Below are positions 32,163 to 57,800 of a DNA stretch of 64,000 bases, piece by piece. The notes under the pieces were generated by a model, which saw only the letters and a program-made list of their open reading frames with translations, searched no databases and was not told the DNA's origin. Where the stretch lies: assembly GCA_000182565.2 (NCBI GenBank), contig KQ257450.1; one strand, given 5' to 3'. Numbering within the stretch: position 1 is the first letter of the stretch; every line of letters starts with the position of its first letter. This DNA comes from Spizellomyces punctatus DAOM BR117 (taxonomy: Eukaryota). The translations under genes were made by a program, and so were the position numbers.

Positions 32163-32235
32163 TAGTGCGGAGCCGATGGGTATTGGCACTAGCACCCGCA
32201 CCAGGGATTGAACCGGCGACAACCAGTTCGGAAAA
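32163..32235 (-). ncRNA. Fanzor omegaRNA scaffold (guide continues into flank about 32148-32162)
   Basis: Minus strand TTTTCCGAACTGGTTGTCGCCGGTTCAATCCCTGGTGCGGGTGCTAGTGCCAATACCCATCGGCTCCGCACTA just 3' of the Fanzor stop; stems GAACTGG/CCGGTTC and GTGCGG/CCGCAC; resembles the SpuFz1 omegaRNA as I recall it; conserved in two other elements here. Confidence 0.88.
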
Positions 32236-32250
32236 GGTAATCTAACTAAT

Positions 32251-34128
32251 CTACGCTACGGCTGGAACACCCCTGCTGAACACTTTTGGTCTACCGTGTC
32301 CATCTAACATTGATTGCACGATCATCAGCATGTTGCAGGTGCTCAGCGTGTCCCTGTTCCAGTAGCGCATCGTCCAGGCTTGCTGACAGTTAGGGTTGGT
32401 ACAACCCAGCAATCCATGGACTTTTTCAATCTTGCCTTCGCGACGGCGCCAAGGTCTTGAATGAGGTCGTGTTTTGAAGCCTTTTTCAAGGAAGTCAGCG
32501 GATGAGGCCAAACAGTGAGGGCAGACAGATGAGGTCTTGTACTCGTCGAGAAGGAAGCAGTTGATCCTGTTGCGCTTAAAGAGGGTGCGCCAGCCTTTCG
32601 TCTTTGATGAGGTCTGAAATCTCGCAGTTCGACCGGCATCGCTCCAATCTCCCATCACAATGGTAAAGTTCCCAAACTTGTTGTGCATGTTGGATATGAG
32701 GTCTGATTCGCTCTTCTGACGGTTTATGAATGCGTGCCATTTCCATCGCGTGTGGGCAGGGTGGGAGTAGAATTCCTTGCGACGATCCGAATCTGCGCGG
32801 CGAACAAGAAGGTAGCGAGTAAAGTCCATGAGGTTCATCGTCTTGTGGCTTGGGATACGTGATTCTATGAGGTCAATTCCCGCTTCCTTCTTCATCTGCT
32901 GTCGTTCCTTTCGCTGCCGACGGCTGCCTGTCTCCATGGCTCGCTGGTTTGCGGTGTAACGGAACGTTGTACCATTGCTGTCTTGGCAGTAGAGAATATC
33001 GCGCTTGTTTGGGTCAATGACGACAATGTTTTCTGCTGCCCGACAAGCAGGTAAGTTTTTCTCCATGTATTGCACTTTAACTTCGTCCTCTAAACTCTTT
33101 GCTGACTTTCTCGCTCCCTTTCCATACTTGTCTGCTTCTGGGTGCTTTAGGTATACAGACACCGAGGTTCCATCTGTACTGATCGAGCCTTCAAACTGCA
33201 TACCGCGGCGAGACCGAAAAGCCTTGTTCCGCAGGTTGCACACGCGCAACCATAAATCGACCTTTTCGACAGTTTCCGCTTCTCGTCGTGTGATGCAAAG
33301 GATATGCTGGTACAGGATGACGGTGTCGATGCGAATATGGGACTGCATCAGAGACCGACGAAGAGGTATTGCGCTGAACCGACGGAAGCCATGTCGTTCA
33401 TACAGCACAGAGAGTTTGCAGTAAGCAGGAAAGAAAGCGAGAGGGTCAACAGCAACCGAATATGCGAGCGGCTGGTCAGAAAGGGGAATGAAGGACCACA
33501 TCTCTTCTAGAAGCTCACTCTCCTCAGCAGTCAAGTCATCCAGTGACTCGGGCATGACATCAAAAAGAAAAATTGACTTCAAGTAGCGAAGACGAGCAAA
33601 GAAAGCTTTCCGCGCATCGCTTTTCAGTGGCAGTCGCCCCCGTCCCTTCACGTTGAGCCGCAGATTGATATACCGGAGCAGCATCTGCATGAAATGCTCT
33701 TGAATGTTGACTTTCAGGTTTGTCATCATACTCGCTGTCAGGTAATTGATTGACTGCTGCTCGCCTCGTAGATTTGGGTGAATGAAGCCGACGATTTGGC
33801 AGTACCGACGAATGTATGGCAACAAGCATCCGCGTAGTGCCTTCTTTGCTTCCTTTCTTGGATGCCAAGCCTCCCCCTTGTTGAGAAGATAGAGAATCGC
33901 TTCGATTGTATCTTCATTTACCGTGGGAAAGGTTGGTGCATATAGGATGTAGAATTTGAGAGCGTGGGAAGCATGGTCAGCGAGTTGATGGATGATGGCG
34001 ATGTAATCTAGAAGACGCTGCCGGTAGGTCTCATTAGGCAAGAAAGCTTTTGCAAAGGAAGTCTTGTTGCAGGTATGTAAGGTGGGTTTGTCGAGTTTTT
34101 CAAGCTTTTGCTTCTTTTTTGGTGGCAT
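32251..34128 (-). CDS. Fz1: Fanzor1 RNA-guided DNA endonuclease (TnpB/Cas12 family), 625 aa from MPPKKKQKL
   Basis: Intronless ORF; NLS-like PPKKKQK; RuvC-I VVIDPN, RuvC-II LDEYKTS, Zn finger CPHC...CTNPNC, RuvC-III WNRD; TDGTSVSV motif; closely resembles SpuFz1 from memory; TATATAA at 34181-34187 lies between the upstream ATG (34215) and 34128. Confidence 0.95.
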   Translation of the reverse strand: MPPKKKQKLEKLDKPTLHTCNKTSFAKAFLPNETYRQRLLDYIAIIHQLADHASHALKFYILYAPTFPTVNEDTIEAILYLLNKGEAWHPRKEAKKALRGCLLPYIRRYCQIVGFIHPNLRGEQQSINYLTASMMTNLKVNIQEHFMQMLLRYINLRLNVKGRGRLPLKSDARKAFFARLRYLKSIFLFDVMPESLDDLTAEESELLEEMWSFIPLSDQPLAYSVAVDPLAFFPAYCKLSVLYERHGFRRFSAIPLRRSLMQSHIRIDTVILYQHILCITRREAETVEKVDLWLRVCNLRNKAFRSRRGMQFEGSISTDGTSVSVYLKHPEADKYGKGARKSAKSLEDEVKVQYMEKNLPACRAAENIVVIDPNKRDILYCQDSNGTTFRYTANQRAMETGSRRQRKERQQMKKEAGIDLIESRIPSHKTMNLMDFTRYLLVRRADSDRRKEFYSHPAHTRWKWHAFINRQKSESDLISNMHNKFGNFTIVMGDWSDAGRTARFQTSSKTKGWRTLFKRNRINCFLLDEYKTSSVCPHCLASSADFLEKGFKTRPHSRPWRRREGKIEKVHGLLGCTNPNCQQAWTMRYWNRDTLSTCNMLMIVQSMLDGHGRPKVFSRGVPAVA

Positions 34129-34180
34129 TGATGATATCTGTGGGAAAAGATGAAAGCCTGGGAAAATGGGCGACGACAAC

Positions 34181-34187
34181 TTATATA
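34181..34187 (-). promoter_or_regulatory. Putative TATA box of Fanzor gene
   Basis: TATATAA about 53 nt upstream of the ATG at 34128. Confidence 0.55.
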
Positions 34188-34619
34188 GGATTTTTTGGAT
34201 CAAACCATAGTTCATGAGTCTAAATCGAGTAAAATTATGATTAAATTGGTTGGAATCTATGTACTAGTGCCAATACCAATCGGCTCCGCACTATGGAAGC
34301 TGTCACAAGATTACGTCAGCTTCAATCTCCGCTGTTCGCCACGGTTCATGCTCCGCGTACTAAAAATAACAACAATATTATGACTATCTTTCGCAGAGCC
34401 CCACGGCTCTGTCAAACGACTAATAGTTTGGCATACTTATGTGGCTTCAAATTACCGGAAGAACTTCGAAACTTCTGTCCGCAAGAGCCTTCCGAGCTTA
34501 TTCATTCTAACAGTGGCTGGTCTCTGCTCCATGAGCAACTTTTGATTCTTGTTCTGAGCCCAGCAATATTTAGGGCGAACGTCTGAGTCTGTCTGTCGTT
34601 AGTGATCCAAAGAGTCTGC

Positions 34620-39418: not shown

Positions 39419-42400
39419 ATGACTACGTGGGCGCAAAGAGCATCTGCTCCAAAAAAGCCAGCGCAAGCGGCTCCGACTGTGAATGTAGGGAAGGGTAAAA
39501 CTGGCGGCGGTGGGAATGTGAAAGCAGGATCTCCCACAACTACAGAAAAGTCTCCTATTGCACCAAGCCCTACCAACACGACACCTACTTCATCCGCCCA
39601 GCCTCCACAACCGGCACCTAGCCCGGTTGCTAACGGACCTGCTAATCCCAACACAACATCCGCTCGTCCAAAATCACCCCAAGGCGCCGTCAAAACACCA
39701 ATGAGCTTTGCAGCTATTTTGGCGAAAGGGAATCTTCCTACACAGAATGCGGCTAGTGCTGGAGGAAATGCCCCACAACAGGCAGCAGCTGAGGGTCAGG
39801 TGAACGGTAAGGCCTCCGTCTCAAAAGGTACATCTCACGTCAATGGCAAGCACACTGGGAAAGAAGCGCGACACAAAGACACTCAATCGAGGTTAGTATA
39901 AGTTGATTGCCATGATCTACCTTTTTCATATTGACCGATTTCGTACGTTTCCTGCTGCTGCAGACAAAGTGCGAGTGGAAACGGAGAGGCTGTACAATTT
40001 AAGGGAGCACTGAAGAATAAGTTGCATAGTGTTAATGCGCCAACGAAGCGGATGTCTTTTGGCTCTTTTGACTCGGAAGAGGCGCCAAATGGTGCACCTG
40101 CAACCGCAAATGCCCCTAGGGCAGCATCACCTCAGGATGCTGCGTCACCGGTAACATCGCCGATCGACGCACCTGCACCGGTTGCTCCCTTGGCGGTGAA
40201 GGATGCTCCCACAGCCACCGCGGCGTCCAGCGCCGCTACACCAACACCAGCTACTGGCACTCCAGTCTCATCTACGGCTCCGACGACGCTTTCTCATCAA
40301 CCCAAACCCGTGAGTATCCGCTGAGGCAAAGAACATGTTGTTTCACAGAGCTCATTTATATATCCTCTATGAATATAGGTATCTGCAGTTGCTGCACGTG
40401 CTGTTCCCGTTCAACCTACCATTCCGCGCACTATGTCTGCTCCCCCGACGATGAAGCAGGGTGGCAAGGGGCCCGCAGTTGGACAAGTGCAAGGACAACC
40501 ATCTGGGACCTCGGTAGCTGGGGAAGTTCAGCACACCGTTCCTGTCACTGGTGTCAGTGCACCGGGACCTGGTCAAGTTTCCCCTGTGACCCCAATGCAG
40601 CAACACGTCTCACAGCCGCACGTTCATCCCGCACATCCGGCAGGTCACCATGCACAAACTCACGCTCCTCACCACCCGCAGTTCCATCAACCAACGGCAC
40701 AACACCATCACCCGCAACATCATCATCAGCAGTTGCACCCCGCTACTCATCAGCAGGCGCACACGTATGCACCTAGACATCAACAACATATGAGACCACC
40801 TGCCATGCCCAACGCTGCGCCATACGTGAAACAGTACAAGCCACATGGTGTGGCGGTGAGTTTCTTGTCACCGTTACTTTCTTATTTGCCCCCCTGATTG
40901 ACATTAATTTTGATTAGCCCAATGCTCACGTGGCGGCAATCTCGCAGCCAGGAGTACCGCATCAAATGTTGGGCCCGACCCCAATCTCGGGGCCGAATCC
41001 TACAGCCATGTACGCGTATGTCCAAGGAGTCCCACAAGTGAGTAGGCTCGCTGACTTGCTGCCTGCTGCTTGCTAATAATTGTATCATTATGCACACCAG
41101 TATTATACGTCGTATTATGACCCACAGATGCCATACACACAATTCACACCCGCATACATGCAGTATCCGCCTCAAATGATACCTCAAGGAGGTATGCCTT
41201 CGACACCGACGGGGCAAAGATTTACCGGACCCAATCATGCACCAACTACACCGACAAGCACTCCTGGAAGTGCTCGCAATAGTAAAGCAAGAGTGCCTGT
41301 TACCATCAAGCGGCCGGACACCGATGAGCCAGTTCAGCTTCCTCAAGCCACAACAGCATCCTCACCTGCACCACGGACAAGTGCTCCAGCCATTCAGCCA
41401 AAGGTTGAAACTCCCAAATCTAAAGTTCGTATTGTGTTGAAGAATCCTGAGACAGGCGAAGAGATCTTGAACATCAAAGGCGAGGAAGCACAGAAGAAGG
41501 AGGATGATGTCGTGACAAAGACTGAGAAGAATGAGGATACCCCGGTAGCTGAAACGAAAGAGACACCGCAACCCGAAGCTCCAACTGCCGTCCTGAAGGA
41601 GGCAGACGAAGCTCTTCCTACCGCGGAAGCGAAGCCGGTAGCGGAAGTCAAGGTTCCAGTTAAGGTAGATACTAAAGAGGCGAAAAAACCAGAGGTTGTT
41701 CAGATACCTAAGCCGGAGACAAAGGAACAACCCAAACCTGTTCCGTCGAAGGAGGTCACGGAGGATGTTTCCGCGGAGCCTGCTAAAGTGACACCGCCAG
41801 CTCCGGTACCCACTACGGCTGCTGAGATTTCTACTGAGAAGACAGATTTGGCACCTTCCCAGGAGGCCAAAGTGGCGCAGGCGAAGGAAGACGTAGAAAA
41901 GGTGCCGGATTCGAAAAAGGATGTAGAAAAGGTTCCGGAATCCAAAAAGGAGGAAAAGATTGAAGCTCCGAAAGAGGAACAGGTGACACTGAAAGAAGCC
42001 GTCTCGGTAGATGAAAGTGCAGTCGCAAAGTCGGAAGTTCCTGAAGCCGCGAAACCAGCAGAACCTGTGGAGCCTGAGCTGGAAGATGGGGAAATTGCGG
42101 AGGATGACGGTGCAAAGGAGTCCGCCCCGAAACCTGAAGCACCAGCGATTGATGGCGCGAAACCAATTGCCACATCCGAAGATGTTCCAACGGACGCTAA
42201 TCTGCGGCGATCTGCCTCACCTCTAATTGATGAGGAGGCTACCAAGCCAGCTGGGTCCAAAGGAGAGCTGCCAAGTAAAATTGACACACGACCAGCCATG
42301 AAGCGCTTAGAGTCTTTCGAAGGTGTCAAGTATCCCAGTACCGTCCCATCGCCTTCCCACGAACCTGGGAAGCCCTTCCGGTATCAAAGGGATTTCCTTC

Positions 42401-45400
42401 TTCAGTTTGCAGAAATTGCCAAAGAAAAGCCGCAGGGCTTGCCGGCGCACTCTGACATTTACGGAGATGATAAGGGGACATCTCCTCGCGGCGATCGTAA
42501 AGACTCGAAAGGTCCTGGTCGTCCTCTCAGTATGTCTCGCCAGGGATCTTCCAGTGATGTCCGCATGGGCCCACCAGGTAAAACAAGCGAGGAAAGATGG
42601 CAGCAAGCGATGGCATCAAAGCACGGCGGTGTTGGCGTACAAGGTGTTATGAGTGGTGTGGCCCCTCCACCTACTGCACGAATGAGCCGTACAGGTTCTG
42701 GCGGCGGTGGACGCATGCCACCCATGATGCGTCAAGGCTCTTTCCGCGACGGCGTACAGTCTGGTAGAGATAGTCGAAGTGGTCGTGGAGGTCGCGATCG
42801 TGGACCACCGCGCCATGCGGCTCCTGAGCCACCAGGCGAACCCGTTGAGCCACTCGTCAAGTCTGAGACTGCTTGGGCGCCTATGTCTGTGAAAAAGTCG
42901 GCCAAGAAGCCCGCCGATGGGGAGGACAAGGAGAAGGCCGAGGAGGAGCTGATATACAGAAAGACAAAGGGTCTCTTGAATAAGCTGACCATTGAGCGCT
43001 TCGATTCCATTTCATCCCAGATTTTGAACATTGGCATGACAAGGGAGAGCATTCTCAAGGGAGTTATTGCCCTTATATTTGAAAAGGCGTTGGATGAGCC
43101 CAACTTCGGGTCCATGTATGCTTCCCTTTGTGCTAGACTGTCGAGCGAGCTACCAAAGGTCCAGAGCTGGATTGATATAGATGCGAAAAACAATACCTTC
43201 AGAAGAGTATTGTTGAATCGGTGTCAGGAAGAATTCGAAAAAGGTGCTAAATGGAGCGAATCAGAGGAGAAGCTCCTCGAACAGCGGCGGGAAGCCCGTA
43301 CCAGATTGGAAGCCATGACTGACGAAGAGAAATTGAAGATCGCTGAGGAGGATTACCAACGCGGCAAAACGAAGCGGCGGGTGCTCGGTAACATCAGGTT
43401 CATTGGTGAGCTTTTCATACAGAGCCTTATTACCGAGAAAATCATGCACCAGTGCATACAACAACTTCTTAAGAACGTGACGGACCCAGAAGAGGAAGAT
43501 GTAGAGTCGCTGTGCAAGTTGCTCACTACCATTGGTGCACGCATGGACCACTCCAAGGCTAAGGGTCACTTTGAGGCATACTTTGCGCGTATCGAGGAAT
43601 TGACCAAGAACGCCAAGTTGTCTGCTCGTATCCGATTCATGCTGCTTGATCTGATAGACCTTCGCAAGGAGGGCTGGAAAGCACGAAACGCGCCCACTGG
43701 GCCGAAGACTATTGCTGAAATCCGGGCTGAAGCTGAACGTAAACAAGCGGAGGAAGCACAAAAGATTCAAGAGCGAAACCGAAGCTCAGGGGGAGCCCGG
43801 GGATTGCCAACACGGGATCAGCAGTTCCGGGATCGTCGGGGAAGTGGTCGGGGCAGTCAAGACGGACGTACCGGAGGTGTGGCCCAAGTTAGCGGGGACG
43901 GATGGGTCACACAGGGATCAACGCGAGGCATGCCTCAGGCATCGCGGCAAGTTGAGACCTTTGCCAACTTTGGTCAGATCAAAAAGGCTGACCGTACGTC
44001 GATTACGTTTGGTCCGGGTGGTGGTATGGGCTTTGGACAAGGTGCGAAGGGATGGGGTGCCAAGAAGACCGAGGCGAAAGAGGCTGGAGCGCCCTTGAGC
44101 AGATCAAGCAGTGCTGGAGAGGGTGGCCTTGCTGCTCCCAACATGTTCAGCGTGTTGGAGGGTATGGACCGAAAGAAGTCTGTTGATGAGGGACGCAAAC
44201 CTACTGCGCCTAAAGCGGTGACGCCAAGCAAGGACGAAGAGCAGCCCAAGGAAGAGGAGGTCAAGAGATTGACAAAGGGTCAGGCCAGTGCAAAGCTTGA
44301 CGGAATCATTGAGGAATGGTTCACCCTTTTGGACGTGAACGTAAGTTCCACTGGGGGCTTTTATCATGGGAACATTTAGAACTAATGTTCCTGTGTAATT
44401 TATAGGAGGCTTTTCTGTCCCTAAAGGAATTGGGAGCATATGAGTATCACCCGGACTTTGTGGATACCGTCTTGAACAAGAGTTGGGAGAATAAGCCGGA
44501 TGTGATCAAAAAGGCTGTGAAACTTTTGCTCAAGCTCCTGGACGAGGGCCTTGTCGCCAATGAGGATTTGAAAGACATGTAAGTGTTTTCACCGATTTGT
44601 AGTACCGTATCTTGTGGCAGCCACTGACACGGATTGTGGCCTACAGCCTAGCTCCCCACATCGAGGTCATTGATGATTTGGCAATAGATGTGCCAGACCA
44701 TTACAAAAATGCTGGTCATCTATTGGGCCGCCTTGTGGCTTCTGATTTCATAAATCTGCAAACCGTCCTTGAGCTATCCGCTCCTCTCCTCTCAATATCA
44801 TCCATGAAACCCCCCGGCGCGCGGCTGTTGGCTGAGACACTCAAAGATATCAAATCTTTGGATGGCGATAACGCCCTAGTTGATATCGTCACAAAGGACG
44901 CTGTCGATCTCAAAGAATGGTGGCCAAAGGAAAAGCGTACTGATGAGATTCTGGCAGATTGGCTGGATGCGAATGGGCTTTTCATTTTGGCCCCGGAGCT
45001 TGAAACATTGAAGGGGTTAAAATGGAGATTAGGAAAGGATAATGTGGAATCTGTGGCGGCTTGGTTGAAGGTAAACAAAGCAGTACATTGACCTGCTCAT
45101 TTGAAATGGTAAATTTAACGAGTGGATGTTTCGTAATTGTAGGAGCCGAGCAATGATAAAGTGCGCGCGTCGCCGGAATTCGTGCGAATCTTGACAATAG
45201 GTGTTTTGTCACACATTGCATCGCAAACAGTATTCGCGAACGGCCCCAACAAACCAGTAGAACCCACTCCCGATTCCGTGCAAAAGCAAAAGGAGATGTT
45301 GACATCGCTCAAGCCGTTGTTTGATCCATACGTGGATGGGTCTAAGAAAGTGGATGTATTGTTTGCTATTCAAGCGTACTGTGGCAATATTGGATTCCCT

Positions 45401-45613
45401 ACTGGTTGGTTGAAGCTTTATATTGCCAGCAACTCGTTTTTCAAACTTCTAACGATGCCAAAAATCGTTGCAGAACTCTTACCCAACATGTTCCGTCATT
45501 TCCGAGAAGTCGGCATTGTAGACAAGAGCGCATTTGAAGCATGGAAACAGGACACATTGCGAGAGCAGAGTACAAAGAAGGAGGCCCTTGCCGCCGTCGG
45601 AGACATGTCCTAA
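39419..45613 (+). CDS. eIF4G: Translation initiation factor eIF4G (multi-exon)
   Basis: eIF4E-binding YQRDFLL; MIF4G KGLLNKLT..IFEKALDEPNFGSMYA..LGNIRFIGELF..RIRFMLLDLIDLR; GPKTIAEI; MA3 and W2-like C-terminal exons. Confidence 0.95.
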
Positions 45614-46073
45614 AATTGAACGGATCAACACATAAACAAGGGGGGAATCACGTTTTTTGCATATATAATAGTTGGGTTTTGTTTATCTTTCCATTTCTGC
45701 CGGATTTCTTTTTCTGCACGGATGGATGGCATCAAGGTGTGCAGAAGGCATCGCATATGGCTGTTTCTTTTTTTCTTTTGTTTTTTGTTTGAGGAGATCT
45801 AGTTAATATATCCATTTGGAAAATCGTTTCATCAAATTGTGCTCGTTTCGTTCTACCTTGTTTTTATGGTATATGGATTATTCCAATACTGCGAGTCCCA
45901 TTGCACCTTTGTGATGACGATGTGCGGTTTTGCGGGGAAGCGCTGTTTTACAGTCGAAAAGAATTCTTTGTCATTGTTTCAAATGTTTGCCGTTGAAGAT
46001 GTGCAGCAGCATTAGATGCAAGAGCTGGAATACTTTATACGCAGCCCAGTATTGTGTAATTGTTCATGTTGTG

Positions 46074-46146
46074 TAGTGTAGAGGTGACAGAAAATGGCAC
46101 TAGCTACTACACCAGGGAATAAACCGGCGACAACCGGTTTGGAAAA
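46074..46146 (-). ncRNA. omegaRNA scaffold variant, copy 1
   Basis: TTTTCCAAACCGGTTGTCGCCGGTTTATTCCCTGGTGTAGTAGCTAGTGCCATTTTCTGTCACCTCTACACTA; stems AAACCGG/CCGGTTT and GTGTAG/CTACAC. Confidence 0.8.
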
Positions 46147-46198
46147 GCTAACTAAGCTACTACTAGGCAATTATACACGCAATACGTAACGGTTGGTT

Positions 46199-46551
46199 CT
46201 AACCGGATAATTGCCCTCCACCACACGCGGTCCCTACTAGGCCTTGATCCAGAACTCTTGATGGCATTGAAGCCAGACTCTTGCATCCAGGAGCGAATCG
46301 ACTGGGCAGCGTCACAAGCCAGAGGATGTTCAGTGACAAGGCTTGGAGACTAGAGAAAAAAACTGCATGTCAGAAGATGACCCGATGACAAGAAATGCAA
46401 GAAATGCCATCGATACATACCAACCAAGCTCAACTAATGTGGCAGCATAATAGTAGGTTTTGTTATCAGATCCGATTGGTTGCCACTGGTTCTGGTCACG
46501 GTTGCTGTCGGGCGGTCGAGGTCCTCGACACCACCACATCGGCGTTCTCAT
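46199..46551 (-). CDS. Putative spliced 93-aa cargo ORF, copy 1 (exons 46551-46421, 46349-46199)
   Basis: accATG, intron GTATGT..CTGAC..TTTCTCTAG (71 nt), frame kept in both copies; coding status unproven. Confidence 0.45.
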
Positions 46552-46669
46552 GGTTGACCGAGTCGCGATGAGGTTGCAATGTGGGTCGCAATGAGAGTTG
46601 TGCAGATGCAGATGCTTTGAGAGTCGAGGATGGGTAAAGAGGAAAGAGGGAAGAGACAGAAGGCTCCCC

Positions 46670-46676
46670 TTTTATA
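46670..46676 (-). promoter_or_regulatory. Putative TATA box in element copy 1
   Basis: TATAAAA followed by a pyrimidine-rich tract, conserved in copy 2 (54322-54328). Confidence 0.55.
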
Positions 46677-47064
46677 GACCTTTGGCATGCGCCTCACCGC
46701 AGTTTAAAAAAAAAACATTAGCATGCCACACCAATCTGAGCGATAGATGGGGGTTCTCATTATGCGATATGATTAACCGGATTCATCCGGATAATAATGA
46801 GTCCTAGTGCCATTTTCAATCGCCTCCACACTATGTGATGTGCTTATGTAATCCAGCCCATCCAATTTCAATTCTGCCTTTTACGACACGCATGGTTTGC
46901 TTTTGTGGTGAACTCACTACGACTTTATCCGCCTCTCCAATTCCCAACGTGATCAGCTGTGTGGGGAGTCAAACCACATGCTAAAAGGGCCATAGCAACC
47001 AAAGTGTGTGCAGTGTGTGTGTGTGTCGATACCGTTCTTTTTTTTCCTTTAAAATGGAGAGATC

Positions 47065-53612: not shown

Positions 53613-53686
53613 GCCTCCTTGGCTCAGTTGGTTAGAGCGTCTGCCTAGTAAGCAGAAGGTCCCGCGTTCGAATCGCGGAGGAGGCA
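53613..53686 (+). tRNA. tRNA-Thr(AGT)
   Basis: Acceptor stem GCCTCCT/AGGAGGC, D arm GCTC..GAGC, anticodon arm TCTGC-CTAGTAA-GCAGA, T arm GTTCGAATC; TTTT about 23 nt downstream. Confidence 0.96.
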
Positions 53687-53751: not shown

Positions 53752-53824
53752 TAGTGTAGAGGTGACAGGAACTGGCACTAGCTACTACACCAGGGAATAA
53801 ACCGGCGACAACAGGTTCGGAAAA
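53752..53824 (-). ncRNA. omegaRNA scaffold variant, copy 2
   Basis: TTTTCCGAACCTGTTGTCGCCGGTTTATTCCCTGGTGTAGTAGCTAGTGCCAGTTCCTGTCACCTCTACACTA. Confidence 0.78.
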
Positions 53825-54483
53825 GCTAACTAAGCTACTACTAGGCAATTATACACGCAATACGTAACGGTTGGTTCTAACCGGATAATTGCCCACCACC
53901 ACACGCGGTCCCTACTAGGCCTTGATCTGGAACTCTTGATGGCATTGAAGCCCGACTCTTGCATCCAGGAGCGAATCGACTGGGCAGCGTCACAAGCCAG
54001 AGGATGTTCAGTGACAAGACTTGGAGACTATACATGCATGTTAGTGACAGAATAACATGAAAAGAGATGATGCCATTGGTACATACCAACCAAGCTCAAC
54101 TAATGTGGCAGCATAATAGTAGTTTTTGTTATCGGATCCGATTGGTTGCCACTGGTTCTGATCACTGTTGCTGTCGGGCGGTCGAGGTCCTCGACACCAC
54201 CACATCGGCGTTCTCATGGTTGACCGAGTCGCGATGAGGTTGTGTGGGTCGCAATGAGCGTTGCACAGATGCTTGCGAGTCGAGGGATAAAGAGGAAACA
54301 GGGAAGAGGGAGCAGGTCCCCTTTTATAGACCTTTGGCATGCGCCTCACTGCAGTTTAAAAAAAAAACATTAGCATGCCACACCAATCTGAGCGATAGAT
54401 GGGGGTTCTGATTATGCGATATGATTAACCGGATTAATCCGGATAATAATGAGTCCTAGTGCCATTTTCAATCACCTCCACAC
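53754..54483 (-). mobile_element. Nuclease-less Fanzor-related TIR element, copy 2 (730 bp; ghost-type)
   Basis: TIRs at 53754-53781 and 54456-54483, TA flanks at 53752-53 and 54484-85, CATA at the left junction; colinear with 46076-46831. Confidence 0.92.
53877..54217 (-). CDS. Putative spliced 93-aa cargo ORF, copy 2 (exons 54217-54087, 54027-53877)
   Basis: accATG, intron GTATGT..CACTAAC..TATAG (59 nt); exon lengths 131 and 151 identical to copy 1. Confidence 0.45.
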
Positions 54484-54870
54484 TATGTATGGATGGTTGT
54501 TGGCATTCAGGCCATGTATATTTCTTACTCTGTACAAATACAAAAATATCGCAAAGAGAGTGCAAAATGGGATAGGCATACTAAACATAACCCGGACGAC
54601 CCCGCCAGATATTCTTGTTTTTTTTTGCGTTTTCTTCGCCTTATGTCCAAAGGCCAACACATTCATCTCATATGTAAAAAAGTACGACATCTACCTCCGA
54701 CAATGGCCTATGTTACATCCCAGAATCATATGCACGATGATCGTCGTCTAAACTCATAACCGCATGTGATGTTTTTGCTACAGATGTTCATCATACAGCA
54801 TATTGAGCAAATCAGATACAAATATATACAGAACCCCGGAATCCTCACCTCACACCTTTCCAATTGAAGT

Positions 54871-57800
54871 CTATGACGAGCCACTGGGGCTGTACGCAGC
54901 GCCATTTGGCTTGGATGTACTGCTACCAGTGCCCGTTGAAGGGTTTGCACCAGCTGGAGCATACCCCCCGCCAGCGACCGGTCCTGGAGAGGTTGGGCTG
55001 AATGTTGGGGATGTGGGGGAATATTGTGGAGACGTCGGCGAGTATTGCGGCGACGTCGGGCTATATTGAGGTGATGTCGGAGAGTATTGAGGCGAGGTTG
55101 GCGAATACTGCGGTGAAGTGGGCGAGTATTGCGGTGATGTGGGGCTGTAGCTCGGACTCGTAGGTGAGTACATGGGAGACGTTGGCGAGTACTGAGGTGA
55201 AGTGGGACTGTAATTGGGCGACGTTGGGGAATACGTCGGGCTCGTTGGACTGTATTGCGGCGATGTTGGCGAATACGTTGGACTGGTAGGAGAGTAACTA
55301 GGGCTTGTAGGGCTGTAGCTTGGAGACGTTGGCGAGTAACTCGGCGACGTAGGACTATAACTCGGGCTAGTCGGCGAATAACTAGGACTTGTCGGACTGT
55401 AACTGGGGCTAGTTGGCGAATAGCTGGGTGACGTCGGCGAGTAGCTCGGGCTTGTCGGACTATAACTGGGCGATGTAGGGCTATAGCTCGGACTGGTCGG
55501 TGAGTAACTCGGACTCGTTGGGCTGTAGCTCGGACTTGTCGGACTGTAGCTCGGACTGGTGGGCGAGAAGCTTGGCGACGTCGGCGAGTAACCAGGTGAC
55601 GATGGACTGTACCCAGGACTCTGCGGACTGTACGATGGCGAGAATCTAGGTCCACCGGGTCCGCTCCAAGGCTTGCCACCATCGGAATCCACCCCGTAAG
55701 GTGAGAAAACCACAGGTCCAAGTGGGGAATAGCCACCCGCTGGAGTCATTGGCATTGGACTTCGATCCAAGTACGGAGTATGCGCCGGACTCATAAAGCC
55801 TGCCTGGAAACCAATATCCATCGCATGATGGTCTCGCATAGGGTCCATGATGGAGGGCGCCTTTTTCAACATGTCCTCGTCCAAGATAACGTCAACATAT
55901 CCAGTTCCCATAGGTGCCAACTGTCCAAGAATGATATTCTCCGACACACCCTTACAGTCATCAACTTCACCCATGCCAGCTGCTTCAATGAGTAACTCGA
56001 CCGTCTCTTCGAATGAAGATCTGGCCAACGCTCCAGCTTCCGTTCGGTTGATACCATGGCGTGTGATAGCCATCAAGTGACCACGTTGCGTCATAATATC
56101 GCAAAGCAGCGCCAAATGCCGATAGTTGACGTAGGAACCGTCGAACTCGATGACCTTACGCACTTCTTTCAACACTGCCGCACGAGTCGCTTCGATGCCA
56201 AACACATCGTTGATCTCAACAGTGAAGTTGGAGTACGTTCTTTGGGCATCAACTCCATCATGAGCGAGCACGGCAGCCAATGCTGTCCCGTCCGTCTCAA
56301 GGAACCATTCTTTCTCTCCGTTTGCATTAAGTCGTCCGTCGTGATCATAGGTAGGCCGGTTGAATTCAGAAATGAAAGCTCGTTGGATACCAGGGACACC
56401 AGCCAGAGTAATTTGCGTTAGCATATTCTCTTCAACTTTCTTCAAGAACTGGTCTTCATCCAGTTTGCTATCATCATCCTCCTCCCCCTGTTTTGCCTCG
56501 CTCACGATACGCGCAAGAATGACCAACTCCTCCGCGTTGTCATCAGAACACCAACACTTCAAATCGCCTTGGAACTCATCCATAATACGGGCACAGATGG
56601 CTTCGAGACTCAATCCCTTATCGAGCTTTCGTCTGAAATCCAACTTAATGCGCAACACCCACGGTGAGTATCTGCTGAAATCATCGTCCTCCATGTCACC
56701 ATAAGGCTGCATTATAATACGATCTCCTTCAATGACCGAATTCAGTGGGTCCGGATCGTACCAAATCTCCGTCTCCGCCGTAAGGCTCATCAAAGTGGTA
56801 TGTGGGAGTGTACTTTGAATCCGTTTCGCTCGGTCAACAGACGTACGATAATCTGCATCCAAGAATACAGACACACTTGGGGTCTTTATATTCTTAGCAA
56901 CGTTGATGATTTCCTTCAATCGAGGTACACCTAGCGTCACGTTTTTGGAACTGACACCAGCAAAGTGAAACGTGTTCAAGGTCATCTGCGTTGCTGGCTC
57001 TCCGATGGATTGTGCGGCAAGAACTCCAACCATTTCACCCGGGTTGACGATGCATTGATTGAAGCGAGTGTGGATTTCATTGATTATCCAATCAAAGGCT
57101 TCGGGGTTCAGATGGAACTCTTCGATGACACGTCGGGACGCCAACGTGCTTCGAATAAGGATCTGAAACAAAAGTGTGGCATTCTCTTGCCCTTCTCTAC
57201 TGAGATCATCATTTCCGCGAACGACGATCAGCTTTTGCAAGAGATCCTGAACACTGTCCATAACCTTGACAGGATGCAGGCCCGTGGGTTTATTGCGATC
57301 AACTTTGAAGGCATTCTGCGCATTCCATATCATCCGACGAATATTCAGCGGCAATGGCCATGTAGTGGTACTATTGTCACGGAAAATCTGTTGTCGAAGA
57401 ATGCGGCGGTCTTCCTCAAGCTGTTCAAACTCGGCGTCAAACCGTGCCTGCGCTTCGCTTTTGATCAGCTCTTCGGAAATACGGAAGTCCAGCGTATTCG
57501 GTTTCCATCCATGCGGACCATCAGCGACATCAACCTTGTACTTGCTGCGGAACTGCTGGTCAGATATCTTCATGGTGTCCAGGCTCTGCTTTTCCACCTT
57601 TGCTCCGTCCATGCCGTCTTCTCCGTAACAAAATTGAACAATTTCACCTAATGCATTCCGAACCGTGCCATCATACTGTGCCATCAAATCCTCCAGTGCT
57701 TTCACAAGACGGCGTTGAATATACCCAGTTTCTGCAGTCTTCACGGCCGTGTCGATCAAACCTTCACGTCCACCCATGGCATGGAAGAAAAACTCTTGCG

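What the first reader, a model, noticed from the sequence alone, without database searches (positions are those of the whole stretch)
46074..46835. Nuclease-less omegaRNA element carrying a TATA-driven, spliced transcription unit in place of Fanzor (copy 1)
Seen in the sequence: the same architecture as the Fanzor element (CATA - left TIR - TATA - ORF - omegaRNA/right TIR - TA), but the interior shows no similarity to the Fanzor ORF that I can detect, so it is not a simple deletion derivative. Compared with copy 2, the two exons are near-identical (about 9 substitutions in 282 nt, no indels). The segment between GTATGT and TAG is poorly alignable (71 vs 59 nt) yet keeps donor, branch point and acceptor, which is the signature of a selected spliced transcript. 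The spliced ORF is MRTPMWWCRGPRPPDSNRDQNQWQPIGSDNKTYYYAATLVELGCLQALSLNILWLVTLPSRFAPGCKSLASMPSRVLDQGLVGTACGGGQLSG. Fanzor-less 'ghost' omegaRNA loci are known in S. punctatus, but I do not recall this intron-containing cargo being described. Inference: it is either a small accessory/cargo protein or a spliced Pol II host transcript from which the guide RNA is processed for Fanzor acting in trans.
Basis: partly seen in the sequence, partly recalled or inferred. Interest (0 to 1): 0.9.

Follow-up and report, generated by a model that had tools for sequence, protein, structure and literature searches.

The report
Known ghost Fanzor guide-RNA transposon, spliced
This 763-base gene-poor jumping element is one of the already published "ghost" guide-RNA elements of the fungus Spizellomyces punctatus, and its interior is a real, spliced transcript that most likely serves to make the guide RNA and not a protein.

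Summary
Copy 1 (46074-46836, minus strand) and copy 2 (53752-54488) are 97% alike everywhere except the 5' leader and a 71/59-nt GT..AG segment (66% alike). RNA-like contigs skip exactly 46350-46420, so the intron is real. But the element is not new: both copies are listed among the 134 "ghost Spu-1" loci of S. punctatus DAOM BR117 (Saito et al. 2023), whose 75-nt omegaRNA ends work with SpuFz1. What those papers do not discuss is the interior. RefSeq models shown in that paper's supplementary file splice the same intron at six other ghost loci, run on past the right end into flanking DNA, and in three cases feed downstream host genes (e.g. exportin CRM1). The 93-codon ORF is probably not a selected protein: its frame is kept in 3 of 8 copies, changes do not favour third codon positions, synonymous sites are far better conserved than the intron, and no relatives exist outside ghost loci. 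"TATA-driven" is plausible, not shown: two RefSeq mRNAs start about 40 nt upstream of the TATA. Best reading: a spliced Pol II carrier transcript that delivers omegaRNA plus flank-derived guide to Fanzor made elsewhere. Known element, undescribed detail; moderate interest.

The parts
46074..46836 (-). Ghost Spu-1 element, copy 1 (whole element with TA at both ends)
   Evidence: coordinates match a listed ghost locus
46804..46833 (-). Left 30-nt inverted repeat, preceded by CA (CATA with the first two bases)
   Evidence: 0 mismatches to pattern
46669..46676 (-). TATAAAAG motif, conserved in both copies and in the supplementary copies read
   Evidence: role as promoter element inferred
46421..46551 (-). 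Exon 1 part from the ATG (131 nt) to the donor
46350..46420 (-). 71-nt intron, GTATGT ... CTGAC ... TAG
   Evidence: Joint 46349->46421 in runs X5 (3 contigs) and X10 (1 contig)
46199..46349 (-). Exon 2 part carrying the rest of the 93-codon frame and its stop
46074..46148 (-). About 75-nt omegaRNA scaffold including the right inverted repeat (46074-46103)
   Evidence: (D5); extent taken from Saito et al. passages
46059..46073 (-). Flank that would supply the 14-15-nt guide if transcription reads through
   Evidence: Inferred from Saito et al. and read-through RefSeq mRNAs at other loci; not seen for this copy
53752..54488 (-). Ghost Spu-1 element, copy 2 (59-nt intron)
   Evidence: listed ghost locus
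32163..34293 (-). Full SPu-1 Fanzor element; ORF 32251-34215 is a close paralogue of SpuFz1

Best explanation
Copy 1 is a non-autonomous 'ghost Spu-1' transposon of Spizellomyces punctatus. Its interior is a small RNA polymerase II transcription unit: a promoter in the left third, a first exon, a short spliced intron, and a second exon that ends in the 75-nt omegaRNA scaffold. Transcription runs on through the right inverted repeat into the flank, so the RNA acquires a locus-specific guide. Fanzor protein made by full SPu-1 copies (one lies at 32163-34293) would bind this scaffold in trans and be aimed at CATA plus the flank sequence, i.e. the empty insertion site. The 93-codon frame is most likely a by-product. 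Shown: element anatomy, splicing, membership of the ghost family. Shown by others: ghost scaffolds work with SpuFz1 in human cells. Shown at other loci only: read-through. Inferred: processing to mature omegaRNA in the fungus and any homing or retention role.
For: Splicing: contigs of X5 (3, plus 1 using a donor 4 nt upstream) and X10 (1) join 46349 to 46421, ends CT..AC on the plus strand = GT..AG on the minus strand; further loose ends carry the same junction. X5 has no depth in the intron or in 45844-46063 and falls towards the 5' end, so it behaves as RNA although labelled 'DNA?'. X1/X2 cover the whole element with the intron, flank depth 2.5 against 75-579 over the element, as low-coverage DNA of a many-copy family would. 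RefSeq features in the supplementary GenBank file splice the same place at SPPG_09368 (63 nt), SPPG_09412 (59), SPPG_08830 (68), SPPG_07821 (60), SPPG_09407 (68) and SPPG_09019. Read-through: SPPG_08830 mRNA ends 307 nt and SPPG_09407 175 nt beyond the right repeat; SPPG_09368 and CRM1 models continue into flank. omegaRNA: two stems kept between Fanzor and ghost ends, 3 of 22 pairs with changes on both sides. Nucleotide-level, not protein-level, conservation: about 4 changes at 67 synonymous sites versus 20 of 59 aligned intron sites, p=7e-5. Family identity and function of ghost scaffolds: passages of PMC10432273.
Against: No contig covers the flank 46020-46063, so read-through is not seen for copy 1 itself. 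No RefSeq transcript is annotated on copy 1 or copy 2. All runs were contigs, which cannot give starts, ends, strand or level. X5's RNA nature is my inference. Native ghost omegaRNAs were not mentioned in the passages I read; small RNA data there concern four Fanzor loci. The exon 2 plus scaffold fold is no more stable than shuffles (z=-0.57). The frame of 93 codons from the first ATG is uncommon by chance (409 of 20000 shuffles), which leaves some room for a peptide.
Confidence: 0.62

Rival explanations
1. The spliced transcript encodes a small (93-aa) accessory protein that the element carries as cargo.
For: Open frame in both window copies with no indels; first ATG downstream of a TATA-proximal start; only 409 of 20000 shuffles give such a frame; the SPPG_09368 locus has, by my eye, an in-frame 3-nt insertion; RefSeq calls CDSs at some ghost loci.
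Against: Frame kept in 3 of 8 copies compared; shifted or cut in SPPG_09412, SPPG_08830, SPPG_09407, SPPG_09019 and the CRM1 locus. Copy 1 versus copy 2: 3 synonymous and 5 non-synonymous codon changes. Family variants in exons fall 5/11/5 on codon positions 1/2/3 (n=21; p=0.0012 against 60% third positions). Minor donor 4 nt upstream shifts the frame. No Pfam family above cut-off. Only ghost-derived S. punctatus models found among 5.8 billion clustered and 1.84 billion representative proteins; two Ig-repeat hits look spurious. If mRNAs start near 46717, an upstream ATG at 46688 opens 46 codons first.
Confidence: 0.12
2. Ghost elements act mainly as mobile promoters and 5' exons for neighbouring host genes.
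For: RefSeq mRNAs for exportin CRM1 (SPPG_07821), SPPG_09368 and SPPG_09019 begin in a ghost element and continue into host sequence.
Against: Copy 1 points towards the 3' end of a plus-strand eIF4G-like ORF (41080-45613), so no same-strand gene follows closely; copy 2 points at a tRNA gene. Gene models are predictions. This can be a side effect of read-through.
Confidence: 0.14
3. A decaying MITE whose transcription and splicing are incidental and unselected.
For: Many copies, several with frame changes or deletions.
Against: Donor, branch and acceptor are kept across intron variants of 59-71 nt and in the diverged CRM1 copy whose exon 1 differs strongly; the rest of the element is far better conserved than the intron.
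Confidence: 0.12

Closest known systems
Ghost Spu-1 elements of S. punctatus (Saito et al. 2023, PMC10432273)
   Same: Same thing: this locus is in their list; 30-nt repeats, CA upstream, about 550-nt conserved interior, 75-nt omegaRNA end usable by SpuFz1.
   Different: Nothing differs; the interior's promoter, intron and read-through transcripts are simply not discussed there (0 uses of 'intron' in the main text).
SPu-1 Fanzor1 transposon (Bao and Jurka 2013, PMC3627910)
   Same: Terminal repeats, TA duplication, right-end omegaRNA region, ORF-then-scaffold layout.
   Different: No Fanzor gene; interior unrelated in sequence; has an intron, while SPu-1 is given there as a single ORF.
Nuclease-less omegaRNA MITEs in giant viruses
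   Same: Gene-less elements keeping a Fanzor guide-RNA end.
   Different: Those are described as deletion derivatives without a spliced unit; unchecked AI notes.
Spliced non-coding host genes of small RNAs (snoRNA host genes; recalled, no call)
   Same: Pol II, spliced, poorly coding carrier of a small functional RNA.
   Different: There the small RNA sits in introns; here it is at the 3' end of the last exon with read-through.

Membership tests
Ghost Spu-1 element | Two 30-nt inverted repeats related to, but distinct from, those of Fanzor loci | tested here: met
Ghost Spu-1 element | Conserved CA upstream of the left repeat | tested here: met
Ghost Spu-1 element | No Fanzor ORF between the repeats | tested here: met
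Ghost Spu-1 element | About 75-nt right end similar to the Fanzor omegaRNA region | tested here: met
Ghost Spu-1 element | Listed by coordinates in the published ghost set | tested here: met
   Offset from copy 2 predicts copy 1 repeats, found in the file
Ghost Spu-1 element | omegaRNA binds and guides SpuFz1 | not testable with these tools
   Reported for four ghost scaffolds in human cells; not for this copy
Tc1/mariner-type MITE | TA target duplication and terminal inverted repeats | tested here: met
   TA called putative
Tc1/mariner-type MITE | A matching transposase in the genome | not tested
   No genome held; Saito et al. report none within the repeats
Protein-coding gene | Frame and protein-level constraint kept across copies | tested here: not met

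The most novel reading that the evidence does not exclude
Ghost elements are selected guide-RNA genes: each is a self-promoted, spliced Pol II carrier whose exons are constrained at the RNA level and whose splicing is needed to make or license omegaRNA for Fanzor, giving the fungus over a hundred expressed guides.
Probability: 0.2. Interest if true: 0.7.

Novelty: already known. Interest (0 to 1): 0.4.

Why it matters
How eukaryotic Fanzor guide RNAs are transcribed and matured in their native host is little described. If ghost elements supply guides from their own spliced Pol II transcripts, that gives a concrete, testable route for omegaRNA biogenesis and explains why the interior of a gene-less transposon stays conserved. 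It also shows these elements donating promoters and first exons to host genes.

Tried and rejected
Whole genome: not held. Pfam on the Fanzor ORF: no family, identity came from PDB sequences. Rfam: only a tRNA. omegaRNA core pattern in metagenome and viral contigs: 0 hits. Donor-region pattern in metagenomes: 1 locus, L001, only a 21-nt chance match. Earlier notes by place and by sequence: nothing. Flank 46020-46063 and 46856 onward had little or no cover in the laid runs: no conclusion drawn. Contig ends of X5 at 46645/46649, about 27 nt below the TATA, are only a weak hint of a start. Ig-repeat hits P0003 and P0005 rejected as spurious. The supplementary file was sampled, not surveyed: 4 whole parts of 94 plus targeted searches, the latter biased towards loci with gene models.

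Full report
What is there. The element lies on the minus strand. Copy 1 spans 46074-46836 and copy 2 spans 53752-54488. A full Fanzor element lies at 32163-34293. Its 654-codon ORF matches the SpuFz1 chain of PDB 8gkh at E=0. A 30-nt terminal repeat pattern occurs 5 times in the window, against none in 100 shuffles. All three elements are preceded by CATA and followed by TA. The ghost copies resemble the Fanzor element only in the left repeat (33 nt, 82%) and in the right 92 nt (75%).

Between the copies, identity is 97.5% upstream of the TATA, 96.9% in exon 1, 96.7% in exon 2 and 96.8% in the tail. That is 9 substitutions in 282 coding nt and no indels. The 71/59-nt intron has 39 matches, 20 mismatches and 12 gap columns. 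The leader has 14 gap columns. The intron ends are shared: GTATGTA at the donor, and CTGAC or CTAAC before TAG.

The intron is spliced. In run X5, 3 contigs join 46349 to 46421, and one more uses a donor 4 nt upstream. In run X10, 1 contig shows the same joint. Loose ends in both runs carry the same junction. X5 is labelled 'DNA?'. It has no depth in the intron or in the flank bins 45844-46063, and very high depth at the 3' end, so I read it as RNA. That is an inference. X1 and X2 hold the intron and both repeats at depth 75-579, against 2.5 in the flank. This fits low-coverage DNA of a many-copy family.

It is a known element.
- Saito et al. 2023 (passages read) report 134 ghost Spu-1 loci in S. 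punctatus DAOM BR117.
- These have 30-nt repeats, CA upstream, a conserved interior of about 550 nt and a 75-nt omegaRNA end.
- Ghost scaffolds from four loci supported SpuFz1 editing in human cells.
- Their supplementary GenBank file lists copy 2, with a tRNA-Thr gene 65 nt from its right repeat and the RPB1 tail repeats upstream.
- At the coordinates predicted from that offset, the file also lists copy 1, with no RefSeq gene inside it.

The interior is not discussed in print, as far as I searched.
- 'Intron' occurs 0 times in the main text of Saito et al..
- 'Intron' and 'splic' occur 0 times in PMC13434818, which treats only scaffolds.
- 'Ghost' occurs 0 times in PMC11423790.
- Searches for Fanzor with ghost, and for Spizellomyces with Spu-1, returned only these papers and Bao and Jurka 2013.

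Public annotation already shows the splice. I read parts 1, 4 and 5 of the 94 parts of the supplementary file. In them, 3 of 5 ghost loci carry RefSeq models that remove this intron:
- SPPG_07821, exportin CRM1 (60 nt);
- SPPG_09368 (63 nt);
- SPPG_09412 (59 nt).

Targeted searches, which are biased towards loci with gene models, added SPPG_08830 (68 nt), SPPG_09407 (68 nt) and the chimeric SPPG_09019. The mRNAs of SPPG_08830 and SPPG_09407 end 307 and 175 nt beyond the right repeat. Both start about 116-118 nt after the left repeat begins. That is about 40 nt upstream of the TATAAAAG. So 'TATA-driven' is not settled. X5 contigs ending at 46645/46649 hint at a start below the TATA, but contigs cannot show starts.

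The case against a protein.
- The frame is kept in 3 of 8 copies: the two window copies and, by eye, the SPPG_09368 locus.
- It is shifted or cut in the other 5.
- Copy 1 versus copy 2 shows 3 synonymous and 5 non-synonymous codon changes.
- The 21 family variants in the exons fall 5/11/5 on codon positions 1, 2 and 3.
- Synonymous sites are far better kept than the intron, which points to nucleotide-level constraint (p=7e-5).
- No Pfam family passes.
- Protein searches found only ghost-derived S. punctatus models.

In favour of a peptide, a 93-codon frame from the first ATG arises in only 409 of 20000 shuffles.

The omegaRNA end. The Fanzor and ghost right ends fold into the same two stems. 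Of 22 predicted pairs, 3 are kept through changes on both sides.

Verdict. This is a published ghost element. Its interior is a real spliced transcript. The transcript most likely carries the omegaRNA and a read-through guide for Fanzor made elsewhere. Read-through and native processing remain unshown for this copy.

Noticed in passing
window 53613-53686 (+): A tRNA gene lies 65 nt from the right end of copy 2. In the supplementary ghost file, tRNA-Gly and tRNA-Arg genes also sit 139 and 75 nt from left repeats, and the word tRNA occurs 36 times there, roughly a dozen genes near 134 loci; possible insertion preference near tRNA genes.
   Followed up: partly
window 54986-55594 (+): Fourteen copies of a 21-nt period repeat; the reverse strand encodes the heptad tail of the largest RNA polymerase II subunit, as the flank in the supplementary file shows.
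   Followed up: partly
supplementary ghost loci of PMC10432273 (not in window): RefSeq mRNAs for exportin CRM1, SPPG_09368 and an ALG12-like model start inside ghost elements, so some ghosts act as promoters and first exons of host genes.
   Followed up: partly
window 46282-46315 and 46460-46530: DNA and RNA contigs show diverged subfamilies with replaced blocks in exon 2 and a strongly different middle of exon 1, so the family is more varied than the two window copies suggest.
   Followed up: no
window 41080-45613 (+): Long open frame resembling a translation initiation factor 4G-type protein ends just before copy 1, which points towards it head to tail on the other strand; name is my recall from the sequence, not a search.
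   Followed up: no
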